DNA of 64,000 bases from Candidatus Nomurabacteria bacterium (GTDB lineage: Bacteria > Patescibacteriota > Patescibacteriia > HK-STAS-PATE-3). Location: assembly GCA_023898465.1 (NCBI GenBank), contig CP060223.1:1-64000 (forward strand). The letters are read 5' to 3'. The notes below the pieces were generated by a model. The model ran no database searches and was not told where the DNA came from. It was given only the letters and a program-made list of their open reading frames with translations. Of this stretch, positions 616 through 54,813 are shown in pieces (position 1 is the first letter of the stretch; each line of letters begins with the position of its first letter). The position numbers and the translations under genes are program-made.

Positions 616-1673
616 GGGAAGACAAAAATATTATCAGCATGCATAACTTCTAATCCACGAGTAGTATTTTGGGCAACATGCTTTTGGAGCTCACTACTAC
701 TGATCTCGGTTAGTCCATAGCCAATCGGTCGTTGGGCAGTATCTTGGAGCTCAACACATTCTCGAGCTTGAAATTGTCCAGAGATCTTGTGTATCCCTAC
801 GGCCAGGAGGCTATTACGATTCTGTAGGGCAGTGACAGCCCCAGCATCGAGTTGAATACTTGCCCCTGAATTTTGTGCAGAGAGAATCCAACGTTCACGT
901 GAACTGACCTCCATCTCTTTGTGGGTGGCAATGATGCAGACTGTTCCGTGTTGCGCATTTTTTAATATAACCTCGCTTAAGAGAGATGGTTGATTTCCAT
1001 TCATGACAATAGCGGTAATACCGGCAGTTGCCGCTGTACGAGCCGCCTTAAGTTTTGATTCCATGCCACCACGACCCACTGCAGTTTTTCCTTTGGTATC
1101 AAGATGACGGAGATCTCGCATTTCAATAGTGCGAAGTAATTCCACGCCTTGTCCATTACTTGGATTTTCGGCGTAGACTCCATCAACATTGGTGAGGAGG
1201 AAGAGGTGACTGGCCTGACTGAGCATGGCGACAATGGCGGCAAGCTGATCATTATCCAGGAAGTCCGCTTGCTCGGTAAGCGCAGTAGCATCGTTTTCAT
1301 TTACCACCGGGATGATGCCCTGGGCGCATAGTTCTTTCAAAGTTATTTGCAAGGCATCATAGCGCTGGCGATTAGCAATATCTTCACGTGATAGGAGGAG
1401 CTGGGCAATGTGCACCTCAGCTTGCGCGGCAGCTTTATGGGCTGCTTCCATTAAGAGGAGCTGACCATAGGCAGCTTTTGCTTGTTTACTTTGCAGGGCT
1501 TTGCTTTGTCCACCCATACCAACTGCACCAGAAAGTACTACAATACAAAAATGCCCAGCATCTTGAATTTTTTTCAATTCGGCAAAAAGTTGGGTAAGTC
1601 GCTCGTGCGCAAAAACGCCATCAGGCATGACCGTGCTTGTACCGATTTTTATGACAACGGTGTTTTCTTTCAT
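612..1673 (-). CDS. proB: glutamate 5-kinase with C-terminal PUA domain
   Basis: 353-aa ORF. It has a VVKIGTSTV-like N-terminus, amino-acid kinase fold motifs (LLTNVDGVY, GRGGMESKL) and a PUA-like C-terminus. It is co-oriented with and overlaps proC. Confidence 0.85.
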   Translation of the reverse strand: MKENTVVIKIGTSTVMPDGVFAHERLTQLFAELKKIQDAGHFCIVVLSGAVGMGGQSKALQSKQAKAAYGQLLLMEAAHKAAAQAEVHIAQLLLSREDIANRQRYDALQITLKELCAQGIIPVVNENDATALTEQADFLDNDQLAAIVAMLSQASHLFLLTNVDGVYAENPSNGQGVELLRTIEMRDLRHLDTKGKTAVGRGGMESKLKAARTAATAGITAIVMNGNQPSLLSEVILKNAQHGTVCIIATHKEMEVSSRERWILSAQNSGASIQLDAGAVTALQNRNSLLAVGIHKISGQFQARECVELQDTAQRPIGYGLTEISSSELQKHVAQNTTRGLEVMHADNIFVFP

Positions 1674-1699
1674 ACCTGCCTATGGTAGCGGGACTCAGG

Positions 1700-1744
1700 A
1701 GAAAAGAAAAGGCCCCGCTCTGTAGCTTGTACAGAAGCGGGGCC
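1700..1744 (-). terminator. rho-independent terminator (GC hairpin plus T-tract on minus strand)
   Basis: ggccccgctctgtagcttgtacagaagcggggcc forms an inverted repeat. On the minus strand it is followed by ttttcttttc. It lies just downstream of the stop of the 1774-2247 gene. Confidence 0.5.
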
Positions 1745-1773
1745 ATGGAGCCGGCGTGGGGGAACTACGCCAG

Positions 1774-2247
1774 CTAGTTCGAGGCAAAGGTGCAGAATTG
1801 GGCCAGAGTGCGGTCGGGTGGACCGTCGAGGGGTCGGCGATGCTTGGCGTTGATCTGCAACACCACCTGGCCGTTGTTCGTTCGTAGCCACACTGCCGAA
1901 TTGTTCGGCAACACGGTTTGATCGACCCAGATCACCGCATTGTTGTTGAAGGTGACGACCGGGTAGAACACGAGGTCTTGCTGGTCGGGCTGGGGGATGG
2001 TCAGTGTGACCCGGATCGCTTCTTGCTTGGCGTCCAAGTACACCGACTCGTAGGCCTCGACAACCCGGAAGCTGTCGAGACTGTAGATCCTGCCGATCTC
2101 CGGCTGGAAGCTGGCATCGGACACGTAGACAGTGTGTTCTTGAGTGACGTGGCGGGGCAGCAGCCAGTGGCTGACGAGACCGCCGACGAGCAGTGCAGCA
2201 ATGCCGAAGACGATCACTTTCGGCCAATCCGTGGTTCCATGTGACAC
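1774..2247 (-). CDS. hypothetical membrane-anchored protein (visibly GC-rich gene)
   Basis: GTG start at 2247, preceded by AAGGAGG at 6-nt spacing. One hydrophobic segment (VIVFGIAALLVGGLVSHWLL). A TTGACA-17-TAGTAT promoter on the minus strand sits at about 2344-2315. Third codon positions are G/C-rich, unlike proB next door. Confidence 0.5.
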   Translation of the reverse strand: MSHGTTDWPKVIVFGIAALLVGGLVSHWLLPRHVTQEHTVYVSDASFQPEIGRIYSLDSFRVVEAYESVYLDAKQEAIRVTLTIPQPDQQDLVFYPVVTFNNNAVIWVDQTVLPNNSAVWLRTNNGQVVLQINAKHRRPLDGPPDRTLAQFCTFASN

Positions 2248-2468
2248 GACGAACCTCCTTGTTTGTCCATGTGGAGCGAATTTGCACAGCGCAAATCGCC
2301 TTATGAAAGAACGACCCATACTAGCGTAAATCGGGCTTTTTGTCAACCCCACACTAGATTCGCTGCGAGATCAACCCTGTACCAGACTTAGTATGAGGCT
2401 AAGCTTAGCAGTATAGGACTTGGCAAAAGAGATGCTAATGTGTAAGTATAAAGGCATCCGTTACAGAC

Positions 2469-2635
2469 CCCACTGCCGACGGGTGACTCCGGCGCTTCGG
2501 AGGGCAGTGGGTGGCGAGGAGACTCCGAAGCGCCACAAGTTTCATTGATCTTTAGCAGCACGTTCGACCCCTCACTGTCGGCCAGCGGCTCGGGGTACTC
2601 CAGCGACAGTGAGGACAGCGCCCCTGGAGTACCCC
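2469..2635. ncRNA. candidate structured RNA: two tandem H-type pseudoknots (identity unknown)
   Basis: Pseudoknot 1: 2469-2477 pairs 2503-2511 (9 bp), interleaved with 2491-2502 pairing 2523-2534 (12 bp). Pseudoknot 2: 2570-2580 pairs 2604-2614 (11 bp), interleaved with 2592-2603 pairing 2624-2635 (12 bp). All pairs are Watson-Crick. The surrounding 2350-2980 has no credible ORF. Confidence 0.35.
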
Positions 2636-2987
2636 TCCCTTTTCTACGCAGCCCCCACTGCGCCCTGCCCCGTCTCATTTCTCAATCATCCGAGCGAGAA
2701 AGAAGAGGCGGGGCTTTTTCTTACAAAAAAGAGAGGGTACACAGATCCGGTTGTGTACCCTCGTGGCTGTTCTCGCTGTATGCTGAGGCAGATTCGATAT
2801 CCCCTGGTGACTCTCCTGAGCGCAGCAATACTTAGCCTATGGCACGCCCGATGGTAGAGAGTAGGGCGCACGAAAGAAGTATAAAATGGGAAGTGATATC
2901 TGGCAATTTTCTCTTGTGATTTTTTTCACAAGTTGCTAATTTGGGTATAGTCCTTTGATGGATCTCCAATAGCGTAAGGGAGGGAAT

Positions 2988-3296
2988 ATGTTGGGGAGGA
3001 AATGGTCCCTGCAGACCTTGAACATGAACGGAATAGAGGATCCCCACGATAGAGTCGCACACGAAGCGACACAAGATCTGCAGAGTCGACTTGGACACGT
3101 CGGAGTGAGACCTGGAGGGCACACGGAACCGTGCACGCAGATGAGCGCGCAGAGGCAAGGTAACACGATTCGCATCGTGATGCCGGGCGAAGAACGCAGT
3201 ACGGTATTCGTGATCTCGCCGGGACGTGGTAGCACCTTCAGTGCATTACGAGAGCGTTTCCAGACGGCATTCCCGGATGTGGAATTGCAAGAATGA
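2988..3296 (+). CDS. hypothetical protein (102 aa)
   Basis: ATG preceded by AAGGGAGGG at 5 nt. A TTCACA / TATAGT promoter-like pair lies upstream at about 2915-2950. A hairpin-T-tract terminator follows at 3311-3345. Confidence 0.5.
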   Translation: MLGRKWSLQTLNMNGIEDPHDRVAHEATQDLQSRLGHVGVRPGGHTEPCTQMSAQRQGNTIRIVMPGEERSTVFVISPGRGSTFSALRERFQTAFPDVELQE

Positions 3297-3310
3297 GTCA
3301 AACCTAAACT

Positions 3311-3345
3311 TGGCGCGTGGTAATCCATGCGCCTTGTCTTTTTTG
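3311..3345 (+). terminator. rho-independent terminator
   Basis: ggcgcgtggtaatccatgcgcc hairpin followed by ttgtcttttttgc. Confidence 0.5.
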
Positions 3346-3360
3346 CTTTGGAGTATGGCC

Positions 3361-3435
3361 TGGTGCCCCGGGAGGGAGTCGAACCCCCATTAGTGGCTTA
3401 GAAGTCCACAGTTCTATCCGTTGAACTACCGGGGC
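3361..3435 (-). tRNA. tRNA-Arg (anticodon TCT)
   Basis: Reverse complement GCCCCGG-TA-GTTC..GAAC-..CTTCTAA..-GGGGGTTCGACTCCCTC-CCGGGGC-A-CCA gives a cloverleaf with a 7-bp acceptor stem, T-loop TTCGACT and an encoded CCA. There is one A-G mismatch in the anticodon stem. Confidence 0.75.
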
Positions 3436-3523
3436 ACGATTGAAGGTATAGCAGAAGAGGGAAACATTTGGCAATGCATAAAAAAGTAGCCCCACTCCAT
3501 ATTTCAGAAGTGGGGCGCTTCGC

Positions 3524-4915
3524 TTACCGCGAAATGATCAGTTTGGTTGTTTGTTGTTCATCAGGTGTTCGCAAGAAGTACACGCCTGATGGCGACTGCC
3601 TGGAGTCCCAGCTCGCTCCTCCTCGAGTCAGTTCCCCTGACCAGATCTGTCGGCCTTGCGCATCCCAGATACCGAGAGGCAGACTTGCCGCATCGACACC
3701 CTGGGCGAAGATCTGTACTGCACCACGTGATGGGTTTGGATACGCCACGAGTCTGTGCGTCAGCGCGCTCGACGTATCGATTGATGAAACTGGTAGAGCT
3801 GTTGCGGTGGCGCAGAAAAGATCCGCCTGGTTCAGGATTCCATCATAGAATCGTGACCATACCGCAGTCAGCTCATCGCCGGCGACAAAGATGTGTGCTT
3901 CGACATCGTCATCCGTTTCTGTTGCGACAAGCACATCGTCACACCAGGCATTGCCGCCCCACATCTTGAAGGCCACGTCGTAGGAACCAAGACGGAGGTC
4001 CTGCCATGCCACGTAGATGCGACTTTGGCTGCCGGTGGCAATGTGACAGAACTTCGAGTCTTGATCGGTCTCGGTCAATTTCTCCTCGGGATTCCATACG
4101 CCGCCTATACGGCGCTGCATGAAAATCTCGAAATCACCATCTCGCTTGTCGTTGTAGCCGACCAGCAGAGTGTCGCCCATCAAGGCAAGCCGAGGCTGCC
4201 AAGAGTAGGAGGCATCATTGGTGAGTCGTTCCGTCAGTGTGACCGTGCCGTTCAGTAGCGTTGCGTGGTAGATCTCATCGTTGCCATCGCGAGTATCTTG
4301 CCACGCTACATGCACGGTGTCAGCTTCGGCTATCGCATCCGGGTGGGAGGCGTCACCGCTACTATCCGTAATTTGCGTTGGCGTAGACCAGCTTGCTCCA
4401 TTCCACTTGGCGTAGTAGAGCTCGGAATCGGTCGTACTCAGGGTCATGTAGACAACCCCGAATGAGTCGTCCGACTCGAGCACGAGATCAGCATTCACGG
4501 CGTTCACAGTGGCGAAACTGAGCTCGACTGGCGTTGACCAAGTTGAGCCCGCATCAGTGGAGAAGCTGGAGAAGATCTGGAAAAGGTCATCGACCAAATC
4601 CTCCCATACCACGCAGATAGTGCCACCGTTGCTCACTGAGATACAGGGATTCTCTGGATTGCTTCCACCTGCTATCGCCACCTCCGTGACGAGGGTGGTG
4701 CCGTCCAGTTCGCCGTAGTAGATCTCGAGCCCTCCACTTCGCTTGTCGTTCCAGGTGAGGTGCTGGGCACCGTCGGAGCTAGCGTAGGTGTCGAGCTGAA
4801 ATCCAATACTGTCGGCGAAGGTGAGCTGGATGGCTGATCCAAACTCGACCTGTTCGGCAAGGCTGGTCTGCACTACAGCAAGGAGAGCCAAGAAGGCAAG
4901 AAGCAAACGATACAT
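3524..4915 (-). CDS. secreted BNR/Asp-box repeat (sialidase-like beta-propeller) protein with T9SS-type C-terminal sorting domain
   Basis: Start ATG at 4915 (MYRLLLAFLALLAVVQTSLA signal peptide), preceded by AGGAAGGA. Asp-box-like motifs are present (STDAGSTWS, WNGASWSTP). The C-terminus ...YPNPSRGAVQIF...IWDAQGRQIW...SGVYFLRT...KLIISR matches the Por-secretion tail pattern. A terminator hairpin follows at 3490-3520. Confidence 0.75.
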   Translation of the reverse strand: MYRLLLAFLALLAVVQTSLAEQVEFGSAIQLTFADSIGFQLDTYASSDGAQHLTWNDKRSGGLEIYYGELDGTTLVTEVAIAGGSNPENPCISVSNGGTICVVWEDLVDDLFQIFSSFSTDAGSTWSTPVELSFATVNAVNADLVLESDDSFGVVYMTLSTTDSELYYAKWNGASWSTPTQITDSSGDASHPDAIAEADTVHVAWQDTRDGNDEIYHATLLNGTVTLTERLTNDASYSWQPRLALMGDTLLVGYNDKRDGDFEIFMQRRIGGVWNPEEKLTETDQDSKFCHIATGSQSRIYVAWQDLRLGSYDVAFKMWGGNAWCDDVLVATETDDDVEAHIFVAGDELTAVWSRFYDGILNQADLFCATATALPVSSIDTSSALTHRLVAYPNPSRGAVQIFAQGVDAASLPLGIWDAQGRQIWSGELTRGGASWDSRQSPSGVYFLRTPDEQQTTKLIISR

Positions 4916-5049
4916 GCTGAGAGTCCTTCCTTTTGACAATGAACACCCGTAATCTCCGTGATTACGTGTTTGGGGAACATGCAAGATAGCATGTATGTGA
5001 TTTTGGTCAAGCGGTCGACTTTCTTACCCTCATCCTTTACACTATATAT

Positions 5050-5424
5050 ATGCAGCATAAGCAGCGCCATATATACATTCCAACGCTACTCATCATCTTC
5101 TTGCTGATTGCCATTGTACTTTTGTGGCAATTTAGTGAGCCTGAAGCTGATGCCGTCTTTACTAGTGGTGAGGTGATGACACTCCATGGCAAGGTAGCAG
5201 AAAATGTCACTCAGGGCGTAGATGTTGATGCTTCTTCCTATCTTCTCTTAGCGCTTGATGAGGGGAGTGTTGCAAAAGTGGAATATCATCGTGGTGAAGC
5301 TGATTGCGAAAATAGAGTAGATGGCTTTTCTATCAATAAGGGTCAGTCTATCGAGGTCCGGGGTGTGGCAACCAGTCAGGATACAGTGAGCACCTGTGAC
5401 TCAAAAGGTTTCTATATTCGGTAA
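5050..5424 (+). CDS. hypothetical protein with N-terminal membrane anchor (124 aa)
   Basis: ORF with the hydrophobic segment LLIIFLLIAIVLLW. There is no recognisable domain. Confidence 0.4.
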   Translation: MQHKQRHIYIPTLLIIFLLIAIVLLWQFSEPEADAVFTSGEVMTLHGKVAENVTQGVDVDASSYLLLALDEGSVAKVEYHRGEADCENRVDGFSINKGQSIEVRGVATSQDTVSTCDSKGFYIR

Positions 5425-5515
5425 TAGCTCATACTCTTGACTCGTGACCTGGGTAGTGGTATAACACTCAGGCTCTTTTTTATTTGGCAATGACCATGTC
5501 ACATCAGGAGGATAC

Positions 5516-5968
5516 GTGGCAGAAACGCTCAAGATTGCGCTTACCGATGGTGAGCGGCAGGTCGTCGATGCGTTGGGGGTGAGTCCAGCAGTGAATTTCC
5601 TCATCGGCTTGTACGAGGAGATGCAGCAGAGGGGTGCTCGCTCGGTGACGCTGCTCGATGAGCAGAATGAGCCGCATGAGACCTTCGTGCCATTCCTGGT
5701 TCGTCGATCAGGTCTCGAGGGCGACCGTGCCTTCGTTGATGTTCCTCGAGACGATGCGGTGAGTAGGCTGCTGGAGCTGGCTCCTTGCCGGGAAGGTGCG
5801 CCGGAGTCCGAAAGGTTGCGACGTGCGCTGGCCTTGTTCATGCGCATCTGTCGCTGGGTGAAGGAGTCTGGCATCCTGGGCAAGGTTGGTTTGCCGGACA
5901 TGCGGGGCCGGATTCAGCATCAGCTAGACTTGAGCTGGATGCGACCGCTTCTGTCGATCTCGGTCTAG
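5516..5968 (+). CDS. hypothetical protein (150 aa; GC-rich gene)
   Basis: GTG start preceded by AGGAGGA. Third positions are G/C-rich, unlike the neighbours. There is no recognisable domain. Confidence 0.45.
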   Translation: MAETLKIALTDGERQVVDALGVSPAVNFLIGLYEEMQQRGARSVTLLDEQNEPHETFVPFLVRRSGLEGDRAFVDVPRDDAVSRLLELAPCREGAPESERLRRALALFMRICRWVKESGILGKVGLPDMRGRIQHQLDLSWMRPLLSISV

Positions 5969-6059
5969 ACTTCTCTTGACCGAAACAACGGCTCAGTTAC
6001 GACTGGGCCGTTTTCATTTTCCTCTATACAGTAATCCTCTTTTCTTTTATACTATAACC

Positions 6060-44313: not shown

Positions 44314-44403
44314 TCCATTCTCCTTCTGGAATCACAACTGCCCCCACACTTCTCATAGTCTGAAAAGGCAAAGAGAGGCGTGGGGGCAGTTTTATTTTTC
44401 CGA

Positions 44404-53460: not shown

Positions 53461-54813
53461 ATGATGTGGGAACGGATCAAGCGTTTCTTCGCCGGCGAGG
53501 TGGAGGACGCGCTAGGTGAGCTTGGTGGCGAAAGTGTGAATGTCATCACAGCGTTCCTGGAAACGGTCTGGTGCGTAGCCTCGGTCTTTTACCAGACTGA
53601 GGTCAGAGTGTTGAAGCGTGGGCTTCCTTGGTTGATTGTTTGGTTGACCACTTGGGCCATGACGACAATAGTAGCCTGGGTTTGCAACAACTTCTTTTGG
53701 CACCGACCTTGGTTGTCGTCAGTAATTGGTCTTGCCTCGACTCTCTTCGCCTTATTCGTCTTTATCTATGGAGGGAGAATTCTCTTCATATTAGCGGTGG
53801 CGAAGGGGATCACGACCATGAGGCTCTCGAGGTGGAAGCCCTGGGAGATAAATGTGCTCATGGAAGATCTCCGTCGGGGCATGGATGGAACGCTCGACGG
53901 GTATTTCTACTTTCTCCGGATTCTGAGTTGGGTGGCAATTGGTGAGCTCTTGTTCTTCATCTATGGGAACATCTTCCCAATGTGGAACAATTACGCCGTG
54001 ATGCCGCTTTTCTTTTCCACCCTTCTTGTGTTCATACTTCTGTCGAAGAAGCTGAGCACGGGCGCGGAGAAGGCGGCTCGGATGCAGCAGGTGCAGCAGG
54101 TGATGCTCGTCATCGCCGTTCTGTGTTCGGGGAGCTTCCTGGCGCCGGGACCTTTCCAGCGCTTTGGAGCAATGCTCACGAGCCTACAGACCAAGGCAGC
54201 CTCTGACACCTGGTTCCCAGTGTCGGCGCTCTTGATCGTCTTCATCACTCTTGCGGTGTACGGCAGCAAGTCCTTGCTCAAGTACACGCAGTGGTTGATG
54301 ATCGGCTTGGCGTCGTCGTACATCGGCTACGTGGCCATCTCCGCAGTCTGGATCAAGCACAACACTCCGCTCGTGCCGACGGTTTTCCTAGGTACGGTCG
54401 CTCTGGTGCTGGTGCTGGCGGCAATCGGACTCACGATGCCGAAGTCGACTGACGGGTCCGGTAAGCGGATGGCTCTTGGTGTTGGTCTGGCTGGATTGAC
54501 TTGCGCCTGCCTCCTCCTCTTCTACGGGGGGAGTCAGGACGGACAGTATCTGGATCCGGTCTCGGGTGCCGCGAAGGTTTTCGTGGCAACTGATCCGGTG
54601 ACAGAGACCCAGATCGGCGTTCGCGGACCAAAGGCGGCGACGTACACGGTTGATCCCGAGTACGGACAGCCCTTCGTTGCCTGGACCTCTCTCACCAGAG
54701 AGGAGCAGGACAAGTTCCGCAAGAACCCGAAGTGGATCGATGAGGTCAAGCTGGAAGGCTTGGGTCTCACGAACAGTAACGCGACCTACACACTGAAAGG
54801 AGGCACACCGTAA
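53461..54813 (+). CDS. operon gene C: hypothetical polytopic membrane protein (450 aa)
   Basis: GGAGG RBS. At least 8 hydrophobic segments. No recognised family. Confidence 0.55.
   Translation: MMWERIKRFFAGEVEDALGELGGESVNVITAFLETVWCVASVFYQTEVRVLKRGLPWLIVWLTTWAMTTIVAWVCNNFFWHRPWLSSVIGLASTLFALFVFIYGGRILFILAVAKGITTMRLSRWKPWEINVLMEDLRRGMDGTLDGYFYFLRILSWVAIGELLFFIYGNIFPMWNNYAVMPLFFSTLLVFILLSKKLSTGAEKAARMQQVQQVMLVIAVLCSGSFLAPGPFQRFGAMLTSLQTKAASDTWFPVSALLIVFITLAVYGSKSLLKYTQWLMIGLASSYIGYVAISAVWIKHNTPLVPTVFLGTVALVLVLAAIGLTMPKSTDGSGKRMALGVGLAGLTCACLLLFYGGSQDGQYLDPVSGAAKVFVATDPVTETQIGVRGPKAATYTVDPEYGQPFVAWTSLTREEQDKFRKNPKWIDEVKLEGLGLTNSNATYTLKGGTP

What the first reader, a model, noticed from the sequence alone, without database searches (positions are those of the whole stretch)
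2350..2980. Two tandem, perfectly paired H-type pseudoknots in a GC-rich ORF-free stretch
- Pseudoknot 1: 2469-2477/2503-2511 (9 bp) interleaved with 2491-2502/2523-2534 (12 bp).
- Pseudoknot 2: 2570-2580/2604-2614 (11 bp) interleaved with 2592-2603/2624-2635 (12 bp).

The two share one architecture: stem 2 begins immediately after stem 1 ends, with a zero-length loop 2. All pairs are Watson-Crick.

Further hairpins follow (2655-2714, gggtacaca...tgtgtaccc at about 2733-2760), and the whole 600-bp region lacks a credible ORF.

Tandem pseudoknots with this geometry recall tmRNA PK2-PK4. However, I could not find a tRNA-like T-arm/CCA end or a convincing tag reading frame. The element might be a different large structured RNA, a cis-regulatory element, or a 3-prime UTR structure.
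Basis: seen in the sequence. Interest (0 to 1): 0.6.

Follow-up and report, generated by a model that had tools for sequence, protein, structure and literature searches.

The report
Orphan small RNA with twin pseudoknots
A roughly 265-base stretch in a tiny-genome Patescibacteria (Nomurabacteria) bacterium most likely encodes a previously undescribed small non-coding RNA built from two copies of an unusually long, perfectly paired pseudoknot; the structure is real and conserved in the one relative available, but its function is unknown.

Summary
Four perfect Watson-Crick inverted repeats (9, 12, 11 and 12 bp) are interleaved A-B-A'-B' twice, giving two 66-nt units with no loop 2. This is far beyond chance: a single interleaved pair appeared in 2 of 20,000 shuffles, and two are present.

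The units lie in a block (2419-2722) that looks like a stand-alone plus-strand RNA gene:
- A conserved TTGGCA box opens the block.
- There is no credible ORF.
- A plus-strand-specific intrinsic terminator (2667-2722) closes it.

In the only orthologous contig available (87% identical overall), bases 2419-2553 are identical. The next-longest identical run, in proB, is 68 nt. The four changes further on lie in a linker and a loop, not in stems.

It is not tmRNA or any Rfam family. ARAGORN and Rfam found nothing, even at E<=10. No Type III toxin, reverse transcriptase or Nop-domain (TIGR-associated) protein lies nearby.

No further homologues were found in the protein, genome, metagenome, viral, phage or plasmid searches. 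Orthologue covariation therefore could not be tested, and there are no expression data.

Best reading: a lineage-restricted structured sRNA made of a duplicated pseudoknot module, possibly using a C/U-rich, anti-Shine-Dalgarno-like tail as its seed. Function is inferred, not shown.

The parts
2419..2553 (+). Block 100% identical to the only orthologous contig (L001). It begins at a TTGGCA box and covers the whole of unit 1.
   Evidence: a 135-nt identical run, against a next-longest run of 68 nt in proB. The adjacent intergenic 2287-2386 is only 73% identical.
2420..2452 (+). Putative promoter: -35-like TTGGCA (2420-2425) and A/T-rich -10-like TAAGTATAAA (2443-2452). Start site inferred near 2450-2460.
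   Evidence: Read directly from the sequence. Conservation starts exactly here. The consensus scan did not list it, so it is weak and inferred.
2469..2534 (+). Pseudoknot unit 1 (66 nt): S1 2469-2477/2503-2511 (9 bp), S2 2491-2502/2523-2534 (12 bp), L1 13 nt, L2 0 nt, L3 11 nt.
   Evidence: Rough pseudoknot energy about -37 kcal/mol, against -29.8 for the best nested fold.
2535..2569 (+). Linker between the units. Two substitutions in L001 (2554 A>C, 2561 C>G).
2570..2635 (+). Pseudoknot unit 2 (66 nt): S1 2570-2580/2604-2614 (11 bp), S2 2592-2603/2624-2635 (12 bp), L1 11 nt, L2 0 nt, L3 9 nt.
   Evidence: The L001 changes 2582 C>A and 2586 C>A fall in L1, not in stems. L001 ends at 2595.
2633..2646 (+). 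C/U-rich tract CCCUCCCUUUUCUA, mostly unpaired. Nine bases (2633-2641) are complementary to the ribosome-binding site AAGGGAGGG (2976-2984) of ORF 2988.
   Evidence: repeat I7. AAGGGAGG occurs only at these two places in the 64 kb.
2647..2662 (+). Small hairpin CGCAG-CCCCCA-CUGCG. It carries a third copy of the CCCC(N)ACUG motif found in the 5' strand of S1 in both units.
   Evidence: (repeat D3).
2667..2722 (+). Intrinsic terminator: stem 2667-2676/2705-2714 (10 bp, including a U-G wobble that pairs only on the plus strand), an inner stem 2678-2683/2696-2701, then UUUUUCUU.
   Evidence: -35.1 kcal/mol for 2640-2722, z = -4.8; sequence.
2723..2762 (-). Convergent minus-strand intrinsic terminator (11-bp stem, then UCUUUUUUGU). 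It stops minus-strand transcription just before the element.

Best explanation
Bases ~2455-2720 on the plus strand are most likely a stand-alone small non-coding RNA gene of about 265 nt, restricted to one Nomurabacteria-like (Patescibacteria) lineage.

Proposed anatomy:
- Transcription starts just downstream of a conserved TTGGCA/A-T-rich promoter at 2420-2452. This is inferred.
- The RNA folds into two tandem, probably duplicated, 66-nt H-type pseudoknots. In each, a 9-11-bp stem and a 12-bp stem stack end to end with no loop 2, giving a 21-23-bp quasi-continuous helix whose grooves are crossed by 9-13-nt loops. The pairing is shown in the sequence. The fold itself is inferred from energy and geometry.
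- Then come a C/U-rich unpaired tract, a small hairpin with a CCCCCA loop, and a plus-strand-specific intrinsic terminator.

Proposed mechanism (inference, about one chance in four). The pseudoknots act as rigid, nuclease-resistant or protein-binding scaffold modules. The anti-Shine-Dalgarno-like tract CCCUCCCUU, together with the C-rich loop, is the seed that pairs with G-rich ribosome-binding sites and blocks translation initiation. The first candidate target is AAGGGAGGG of the neighbouring ORF 2988.
For: Structure:
- Four perfect interleaved stems are at the stated coordinates and far exceed chance.
- Each pseudoknot is about 8-10 kcal/mol better than the best nested fold, by a rough Dirks-Pierce-type estimate.
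- The loop lengths are long enough to span the stems (my own knowledge of pseudoknot geometry, not computed).

Conservation:
- This is the most conserved stretch in the 2.6-kb alignment with L001. Bases 2419-2553 are identical, and 2419-2595 has 4 changes in 177 nt.
- The neighbouring intergenic DNA is 73% identical and the coding DNA 76-96%.
- All 4 changes are outside stems.

Gene-like boundaries:
- Conservation begins at a TTGGCA box.
- The divergent promoter of the minus-strand gene is separately conserved, with a variable spacer between the two.
- A strong terminator with a plus-strand-only U-G pair and a U tract ends the block.
- There is no plus-strand gene upstream, so a plus-strand transcript ending at this terminator has to start inside the intergenic region.
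- A minus-strand terminator at 2762-2723 shields the block from antisense read-through.

Non-coding:
- The only called ORF has no homologue and a junk-like translation.

Unit duplication:
- The two units have the same length and layout. Their 5' parts match at 20 of 32 positions ungapped (p about 0.02).
- If the units are homologous, 7 of 12 S2 pairs and 2 of 9 S1 pairs differ on both sides, and none is broken.

Seed idea:
- A 9-nt match links the tract to the ribosome-binding site of ORF 2988. The 8-mer occurs nowhere else in the 64 kb.
Against: - Only two genomes carry the element, and the second contig stops inside unit 2. There is therefore no orthologue covariation and no test of the 3' half.
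- There are no expression data.
- The promoter is weak by sigma-70 consensus and was not listed by the scan.
- All 44 pairs are Watson-Crick with no G-U pair. That is unusual for a natural RNA and would also fit a DNA-level element.
- The similarity between the units is only modestly significant.
- The high identity with L001 could partly reflect recent exchange rather than constraint.
- The 9-nt match to the ribosome-binding site was found post hoc. About one 9-nt inverted match is expected anywhere in a 750-nt region, and C-rich against G-rich composition makes such a match easier.
- ORF 2988 is itself an orphan of uncertain reality.
Confidence: 0.6

Rival explanations
1. DNA-level element. 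The interleaved perfect inverted repeats, with a shared CACTG/CAGTG core spaced exactly 29 bp apart in both units, are binding sites for a sequence-specific DNA-binding or recombination protein, or they form cruciform-like structures. RNA folding would then be irrelevant.
For: - All 44 pairs are Watson-Crick with no G-U pair, so the symmetry holds equally on both strands.
- The CACTG...CAGTG core recurs with identical spacing.
- A third core copy lies at 2656-2660.
Against: - No recombinase, transposase or replication gene is adjacent.
- There are no DnaA boxes near the element and no GC-skew switch.
- It is single-copy in the window.
- S2 differs completely between the units while keeping perfect pairing. 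That is expected for a helix, not for a shared protein-binding site.
- The block ends in a strand-specific terminator.
- I know of no system that uses A-B-A'-B' interleaved sites.
Confidence: 0.12
2. Relic or recently exchanged sequence with no function, for example debris of a mobile element next to tRNA-Arg. Its identity with L001 would reflect recent transfer, not selection.
For: - The region at about 1.7-6 kb is more GC-rich than the window (54-61% against 48%) and lies beside tRNA-Arg.
- The flanking ORFs are orphans.
- The element is absent from the syntenic site in more distant relatives.
Against: - No tRNA-derived direct repeat (att-like) is present, and no integrase.
- The identity block has sharp, gene-like edges at a promoter box.
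- Substitutions resume in the linker and a loop but not in stems.
- Two independent perfect pseudoknot layouts of identical size are hard to obtain without selection.
Confidence: 0.1
3. Cis-acting leader, either a riboswitch or a protein-dependent attenuator. The pseudoknots would be the sensor and the 2667-2722 hairpin the regulated terminator, controlling the plus-strand ORF 2988-3296.
For: - Same strand and order: structured domain, terminator, then ORF.
- Pseudoknots are common riboswitch aptamers (my own knowledge).
- The C/U tract is complementary to the ribosome-binding site of that ORF.
Against: - About 270 nt separate the terminator from the start codon. That gap holds a convergent minus-strand terminator, a minus-strand promoter-like site, a CRP-type box and the ORF's own plus-strand promoter-like site.
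- No convincing anti-terminator pairing was seen in the folds.
- The stems, at 9-12 perfect bp, are much longer than in known pseudoknot aptamers.
- There is no Rfam match.
- ORF 2988 is an orphan.
Confidence: 0.08
4. A divergent member of a known RNA class: tmRNA (including two-piece forms), RNase P, a Type III antitoxin, a retron msr/msd, a TIGR array, or OLE/GOLLD/ROOL/raiA.
For: Tandem pseudoknots recall tmRNA PK2-PK4 and the ToxI repeats. Patescibacteria are divergent, so covariance models could miss a homologue.
Against: - ARAGORN and Rfam find nothing, even at E<=10.
- There is no tRNA-like end.
- The two units do not form a near-identical direct repeat.
- No toxin, reverse-transcriptase or Nop-domain gene is nearby.
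- TIGR arrays have 5-15 units of alternating 8-12-nt repeats with 9-nt spacers, next to Nop-domain genes (PMC12045711). None of that is present here.
Confidence: 0.03
5. Protein-coding after all: the 96-aa minus-strand ORF 2388-2678 that a gene caller annotated, or a plus-strand ORF.
For: The ORF was called on the public contig L003.
Against: - It has no homologue but itself in 5.8 billion protein clusters.
- Its translation is Ser/Leu/Pro/Gly-rich low complexity.
- Pfam finds nothing.
- A 135-nt run with no synonymous change, beside genes at 87% identity, is not a coding pattern.
- The NCBI record appears to annotate no protein here: the flanking proteins have consecutive accessions USN53554 and USN53555 (this is an inference).
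Confidence: 0.02

Closest known systems
tmRNA pseudoknots PK2-PK4
   Same: Several H-type pseudoknots in tandem within a stable, independently transcribed bacterial RNA of a few hundred nucleotides.
   Different: There is no tRNA-like domain, no tag reading frame, and no ARAGORN or Rfam hit. The stems here are 9-12 perfect bp, whereas tmRNA pseudoknot stems are typically about 5-8 bp (my own knowledge). The units are about 35 nt apart.
Type III toxin-antitoxin antitoxin RNAs (ToxI, CptI, TenpI)
   Same: Layout of promoter, tandem pseudoknot-forming units, then a Rho-independent terminator.
   Different: Those antitoxins are near-identical direct repeats of about 36-45 nt, followed directly by the toxin gene (my own knowledge). 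Here the units share little sequence, are 66 nt long, and no toxin gene follows. PADLOC, Pfam and NCBIfam are all negative.
C-rich-seed regulatory sRNAs of Gram-positive bacteria (RsaE/RoxS, RNAIII hairpins)
   Same: A stand-alone sRNA with several C-rich motifs (CCCC in a hairpin loop and in a single-stranded tract), an intrinsic terminator, and complementarity to a G-rich Shine-Dalgarno sequence.
   Different: There is no sequence or Rfam relationship. In this RNA two of the three C-rich motifs are locked into long pseudoknot stems. The comparison rests on my own knowledge and was not tested.
Upstream pseudoknot domain of tobamovirus 3' UTRs; dicistrovirus IGR IRES
   Same: Consecutive coaxially stacked pseudoknots that form a rigid rod-like domain.
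   Different: Those are eukaryotic viral elements with much shorter stems and no relationship to this one. The analogy is architectural only (my own knowledge; the IGR IRES description comes from the listing).

Membership tests
tmRNA (one-piece or permuted) | tRNA-like domain: acceptor stem, T-arm and a 3' CCA context | tested here: not met
   ARAGORN finds no tmRNA in 1-64000. No T-arm is seen in 2350-2980.
tmRNA (one-piece or permuted) | Match to the tmRNA covariance models | tested here: not met
   Rfam 15 gives no hit at gathering score or at E<=10 on 2200-3400.
tmRNA (one-piece or permuted) | Tag reading frame with a resume codon, ending in a stop | tested here: not met
   No ATG occurs in 2455-2720. 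The UUAGCAGCA triplets are not followed by a stop and are altered in L001.
Type III toxin-antitoxin antitoxin RNA | Near-identical tandem direct repeats | tested here: not met
   The units share 20 of 32 positions at best, and their S2 sequences are unrelated.
Type III toxin-antitoxin antitoxin RNA | Toxin gene (ToxN/AbiQ, CptN or TenpN) immediately downstream of the terminator | tested here: not met
   The next plus-strand ORF is 270 nt away, is 102 aa long, and has no hit in PADLOC, Pfam or NCBIfam.
Riboswitch / transcription-attenuating leader | The regulated gene directly follows the terminator in the same transcription unit | tested here: not met
   A convergent terminator and separate promoter-like sites lie between the terminator and the ORF.
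Riboswitch / transcription-attenuating leader | Mutually exclusive terminator and anti-terminator pairing | tested here: inconclusive
   No strong competitor for the 2667-2714 stem appears in the minimum-free-energy or centroid folds. This was not searched exhaustively.
TIGR array (TIGR-Tas) | 5-15 units of alternating 8-12-nt repeats with 9-nt spacers, next to a Nop-domain Tas gene (PMC12045711) | tested here: not met
   Only two units are present. The variable arms are self-complementary. No Pfam domain hits were found on the neighbouring genes.
Large ornate ncRNAs (OLE, GOLLD, ROOL, raiA, HEARO) | Match to the family covariance model | tested here: not met
Stand-alone bacterial sRNA gene (generic kind) | Own promoter, strand-specific intrinsic terminator, and no ORF | tested here: met
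   The terminator is strong and plus-strand-specific. The ORFs are not credible. The promoter is only a conserved TTGGCA plus an A/T-rich box, so that part is inferred.
Stand-alone bacterial sRNA gene (generic kind) | Conservation above that of the surrounding intergenic DNA | tested here: met
   A 135-nt identical run, against 73% identity in the adjacent spacer. This rests on one relative only.
Stand-alone bacterial sRNA gene (generic kind) | Detected transcript with defined ends | not testable with these tools
   No RNA-seq data were available.
Stand-alone bacterial sRNA gene (generic kind) | Covariation supporting the fold in orthologues | tested here: inconclusive
   The only orthologue is identical across unit 1 and ends at 2595. 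Between the two units, 9 pairs differ on both sides and none is broken, but this counts only if the units are homologous.

The most novel reading that the evidence does not exclude
This is the founding member of a new class of structured RNA in Patescibacteria. The functional unit would be a duplicated 'long-stem' H-type pseudoknot: a 21-23-bp all-Watson-Crick coaxial helix wrapped by its own loops. It might act as a dsRNA-mimicking decoy or scaffold for a host or episymbiont-specific RNA-binding protein or nuclease, with an anti-Shine-Dalgarno-like tail. No known RNA family matches this architecture or mode of action.
Probability: 0.3. Interest if true: 0.7.

Novelty: new variant of a known kind. 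Interest (0 to 1): 0.5.

Why it matters
Patescibacteria have genomes of about 1 Mb with very little non-coding DNA, and almost nothing is known about their regulatory RNAs. Here, a 265-nt block is more conserved than the neighbouring proline-biosynthesis genes. It folds into two perfect 21-23-bp pseudoknots and matches none of the 4,227 Rfam families.

If it is transcribed, it would be one of the first lineage-specific sRNAs described in this group. Its architecture, with pseudoknot stems twice the usual length and no wobble pairs, would also be an unusual subject for RNA structural biology.

If instead it acts at the DNA level, interleaved inverted repeats of this kind would have no known precedent.

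The practical limit is that it has so far been seen in only one genus-level lineage.

Tried and rejected
Known RNA families
- Rfam at gathering score on the whole window, and at E<=10 on 2200-3400, gave only tRNAs and noise.
- ARAGORN found no tmRNA.

Homologue hunt, exhausted with one partial orthologue
- proB against GTDB species genomes: no relatives.
- proB against the protein database: one close relative (L001, 94% aa) and then nothing above 51%.
- More distant relatives (L002, L100-L102) have no synteny and no element.
- One protein search was wasted on a wrong frame, 1670-2245 instead of 1774-2247.
- I used the spurious 96-aa ORF as bait to find translated copies of the element. It found only itself.
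- The 90%-identity clusters of the flanking proteins hold only this strain. They identified the source as an NCBI MAG named 'Candidatus Nomurabacteria bacterium'.
- An exact 20-mer from unit 1 in JGI metagenomes gave 0 hits.
- An architecture pattern, CACTG-N29-CAGTG-N{48,78}-CACTG-N29-CAGTG, in GTDB genomes gave 89 loci. All are protein repeats or unrelated repeat families, and none has A-B-A'-B' pairing.
- A unit-consensus pattern gave 14 hits in JGI and 1 in viral contigs, all random. An earlier module pattern gave 2 random hits in viral contigs.
- blastn against the phage and plasmid collections gave nothing.
- A covariance model of the unit found only the known copies in the window and the related loci.

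Other ideas checked and dropped
- Integrated element at tRNA-Arg: no att-like repeat.
- Replication origin: no DnaA boxes nearby and no skew switch.
- Functional link through neighbouring proteins: the 157-aa and 102-aa proteins have no hit in Pfam, NCBIfam or PADLOC. The 102-aa ORF has no homologue among 1.84 billion cluster representatives.
- Literature: no paper combines Patescibacteria with pseudoknots. The TIGR-Tas paper was read and that family excluded.
Full report
**1. What is in the sequence**

- 2469-2477/2503-2511, 9 bp
- 2491-2502/2523-2534, 12 bp
- 2570-2580/2604-2614, 11 bp
- 2592-2603/2624-2635, 12 bp

They are interleaved A-B-A'-B' twice. In both units the 5' strand of stem 2 is followed at once by the 3' strand of stem 1, so loop 2 is 0 nt. 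Both units are 66 nt long. Loop 1 is 13 and 11 nt; loop 3 is 11 and 9 nt.

The arrangement is far beyond chance.
- The whole 64-kb window (48% GC) has only 25 perfect stems of >=9 bp with loops <=40 nt. Five of them are in 2469-2762.
- Shuffles of the 62%-GC local sequence give 0.038 such stems on average, against 4 observed.
- One interleaved pair occurred in 2 of 20,000 shuffles, against two pairs observed.
- Weaker interleaved 7-8-bp pairs do occur at about the chance rate elsewhere. Only the long ones are special.

**2. Source and surroundings**

The flanking proteins identify the window as an NCBI metagenome-assembled genome named 'Candidatus Nomurabacteria bacterium'. The 157-aa protein is USN53554.1, locus H6760_00015, on a 1,082,586-bp contig. 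The best named proB relatives are also Patescibacteria.

The element sits in a 740-nt gap with the following neighbours.
- To the left is a minus-strand gene at 1774-2247 (157 aa, membrane-anchored, no family hit). It has a GTG start at 2247 preceded by AAGGAGG. Its promoter-like site is TTGACA-17-TAGTAT at 2346-2318.
- To the right is an orphan plus-strand ORF at 2988-3296 with the ribosome-binding site AAGGGAGGG. It has its own promoter-like site (2923-2951) and its own terminator (3312-3343).
- Beyond that is tRNA-Arg(TCT) at 3361-3435 on the minus strand.
- Between the element and ORF 2988 lie a minus-strand terminator (2762-2733 plus a U run) and a minus-strand promoter-like site (2906-2878).

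**3. Evidence that the block is functional**

Only one orthologous contig exists in the collections I could reach. L001 (Logan SRR17818317) is 87% identical over 2.6 kb and ends at window position 2595.
- Within that alignment, 2419-2553 is a 135-nt identical run. The next-longest run is 68 nt, inside proB.
- The spacer just upstream (2287-2386) is 73% identical.
- Conservation starts at a TTGGCA box (2420-2425). The divergent promoter of the minus-strand gene is separately conserved, with variable DNA between the two.
- From 2554 to 2595 there are four substitutions: two in the linker between the units (2554, 2561) and two in loop 1 of unit 2 (2582, 2586). None is in a stem.
- That split (0 of 57 stem bases against 4 of 84 other bases) is suggestive but not statistically significant.

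**4. Which strand, and is it RNA?**

All pseudoknot pairs are Watson-Crick, so they do not reveal the strand. The context points to the plus strand.
- The block ends in a long hairpin (2667-2676/2705-2714, with an inner stem) followed by UUUUUCUU. It folds at -35.1 kcal/mol, z = -4.8.
- That stem contains a U-G pair that exists only on the plus strand.
- There is no plus-strand gene upstream, so any plus-strand transcript ending there has to start inside the gap.
- Minus-strand transcription coming from the right meets its own terminator at 2762-2723, just before the element.

The promoter is inferred. TTGGCA is followed 17-18 nt later by TAAGTAT/TATAAA, which is weak by consensus and was not listed by the scan.

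The coding alternative fails.
- The 96-aa minus-strand ORF that a gene caller annotated on L003 has a low-complexity translation.
- It has no homologue but itself among 5.8 billion clusters, and no Pfam hit.
- There is no ATG at all in 2455-2720 on the plus strand.

**5. The fold**

Nested folding of 2440-2725 is already better than shuffles: z = -3.6 on the plus strand and -4.1 on the minus strand. A nested fold, however, can use only one stem per unit.

A rough estimate adds the stacking energies of both stems to Dirks-Pierce-type pseudoknot penalties. It gives about -37 and -39 kcal/mol for the two 66-nt units. The best nested folds reach -29.8 and -28.8.

Loops of 11-13 nt across a 12-bp stem, and 9-11 nt across a 9-11-bp stem, are long enough sterically. 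This rests on my own knowledge of pseudoknot geometry and was not computed. Each unit would be a 21-23-bp quasi-continuous helix.

Alternative pairings exist.
- The 5' strand of S1 carries a motif, (G)ACCCC(N)CACUG, that recurs a third time at 2649-2661 (repeat D3).
- There it sits in a small hairpin, CGCAG-CCCCCA-CUGCG.
- In the nested minimum-free-energy fold, this third copy pairs with the 3' strand of S1 of unit 1. A conformational switch therefore cannot be excluded.

**6. Are the units duplicates?**

They have the same length and layout. The CACTG...CAGTG cores are exactly 29 nt apart in both. The 5' parts align without gaps at 20 of 32 positions, which 48 of 2,000 shuffles reach (p about 0.02).

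If the units are homologous, 7 of the 12 S2 pairs and 2 of the 9 comparable S1 pairs differ on both sides, and none is broken. That is internal evidence of selection for pairing, but it depends on the homology.

**7. What it is not**

- tmRNA: no ARAGORN hit, no Rfam hit, no tRNA-like end, no tag frame.
- No other Rfam family matches, even at E<=10.
- Type III antitoxin: the units are not a near-identical repeat and no toxin gene follows.
- TIGR array: no Nop-domain gene, no 5-15 units, and none of the repeat-and-spacer pattern described in PMC12045711.
- Replication origin: no DnaA boxes nearby and no skew change.
- tRNA-integrated element: no att-like repeat.
- Multi-copy mobile repeat: the element is single-copy in the window and absent from the related loci.

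**8. How widespread is it?**

Every route to more homologues came back empty.
- GTDB species genomes by protein and by architecture pattern.
- JGI metagenomes by exact 20-mer and by unit consensus.
- Viral contigs, phages and plasmids.
- The protein database, using the spurious ORF as bait.
- Contigs of more distant proB relatives.

These pattern searches are exact-match and would miss diverged copies. Within that limit, the element is restricted to one genus-level lineage, seen in about six samples.

**9. Most likely mechanism**

The well-supported part (confidence about 0.6) is that this is a stand-alone, lineage-specific, highly structured sRNA gene built from a duplicated pseudoknot module.

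The functional step is inference. The region between unit 2 and the terminator is C/U-rich and largely unpaired: CCCUCCCUUUUCUA followed by a CCCCCA loop.
- Nine bases (2633-2641) are complementary to the ribosome-binding site of the adjacent ORF 2988.
- The 8-mer AAGGGAGG occurs nowhere else in the 64 kb.
- The tract also resembles the anti-Shine-Dalgarno tail of 16S rRNA (my own knowledge, not tested).

I therefore favour, at about one chance in four, a trans-acting regulator. Its C-rich seed would occlude G-rich ribosome-binding sites. The pseudoknots would serve as rigid, nuclease-resistant or protein-binding modules.

There are caveats. The match was found post hoc. Three of the nine bases belong to S2. 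ORF 2988 has no homologue anywhere.

The complete absence of G-U pairs in 44 pairs is unusual for an RNA. It keeps a DNA-level reading alive, at about 0.12.

**10. Verdict**

The tmRNA idea is wrong. The best reading is an orphan structured sRNA with an architecture not represented in Rfam.

Support is limited to one partial orthologue, with no expression data and no orthologue covariation. I rate it a new variant of a known kind (a bacterial sRNA gene), with interest 0.5. There is about a 0.3 chance that it founds a genuinely new RNA class.

Noticed in passing
window 2915-2930 and 53535-53550: Perfect CRP/FNR-type palindromes TGTGA-N6-TCACA: 2 found in the window against 0.04 expected. The first sits between the divergent promoter-like sites 2906-2878 (minus strand) and 2923-2951 (plus strand), just upstream of ORF 2988. 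This suggests a CRP-family regulator site.
   Followed up: partly
window 2723-2871 (minus strand): A second candidate small RNA, convergent with the main one. It has a promoter-like TTGCCA-17-TATACT at 2906-2878 (10 of 12 matches) and a clean intrinsic terminator at 2762-2733 followed by UCUUUUUUGU. There is no start codon or ribosome-binding site. Fold z = -2.9 and no Rfam hit. Its conservation could not be tested.
   Followed up: partly
window 2988-3296 (plus strand): A 102-aa ORF with a strong ribosome-binding site, its own promoter-like site and its own terminator. It has no homologue among 1.84 billion cluster representatives and no family hit. NCBI appears not to annotate it, because the flanking proteins have consecutive accessions (an inference). 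It is either a true orphan gene or not a gene.
   Followed up: partly
L001 and L004-L007 relative to window 2595-2897: Public contigs from five other samples break close to the element. L001 ends at 2595, inside unit 2. L005, L006, L004 and L007 start at 2735, 2745, 2859 and 2897, while their far ends are spread over 900 nt. This could reflect strain variation, a coverage drop at the GC-rich structure, or assembly-graph branching at a conserved block.
   Followed up: no
window 3524-4915 (minus strand): A 463-aa protein with BNR/beta-propeller-like repeats and a T9SS type A (Por_Secre_tail) C-terminal sorting domain, in a Patescibacteria genome. That sorting signal is typical of Bacteroidota, so its presence here is unexpected.
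   Followed up: no
window ~1600-6000: A patch of raised GC (54-62% in 200-nt windows, against 48% for the whole window). It covers the 157-aa gene, the RNA element, ORF 2988 and the T9SS-domain gene, next to tRNA-Arg. No integrase or att repeat was found.
   Followed up: partly
window 32358-32385, 33694-33725, 44336-44391: Other perfect 12-14-bp hairpins. The first two have 4-nt loops and are probably terminators. The third, AACTGCCCCCAC/GTGGGGGCAGTT, has a 32-nt loop. None was examined further.
   Followed up: no
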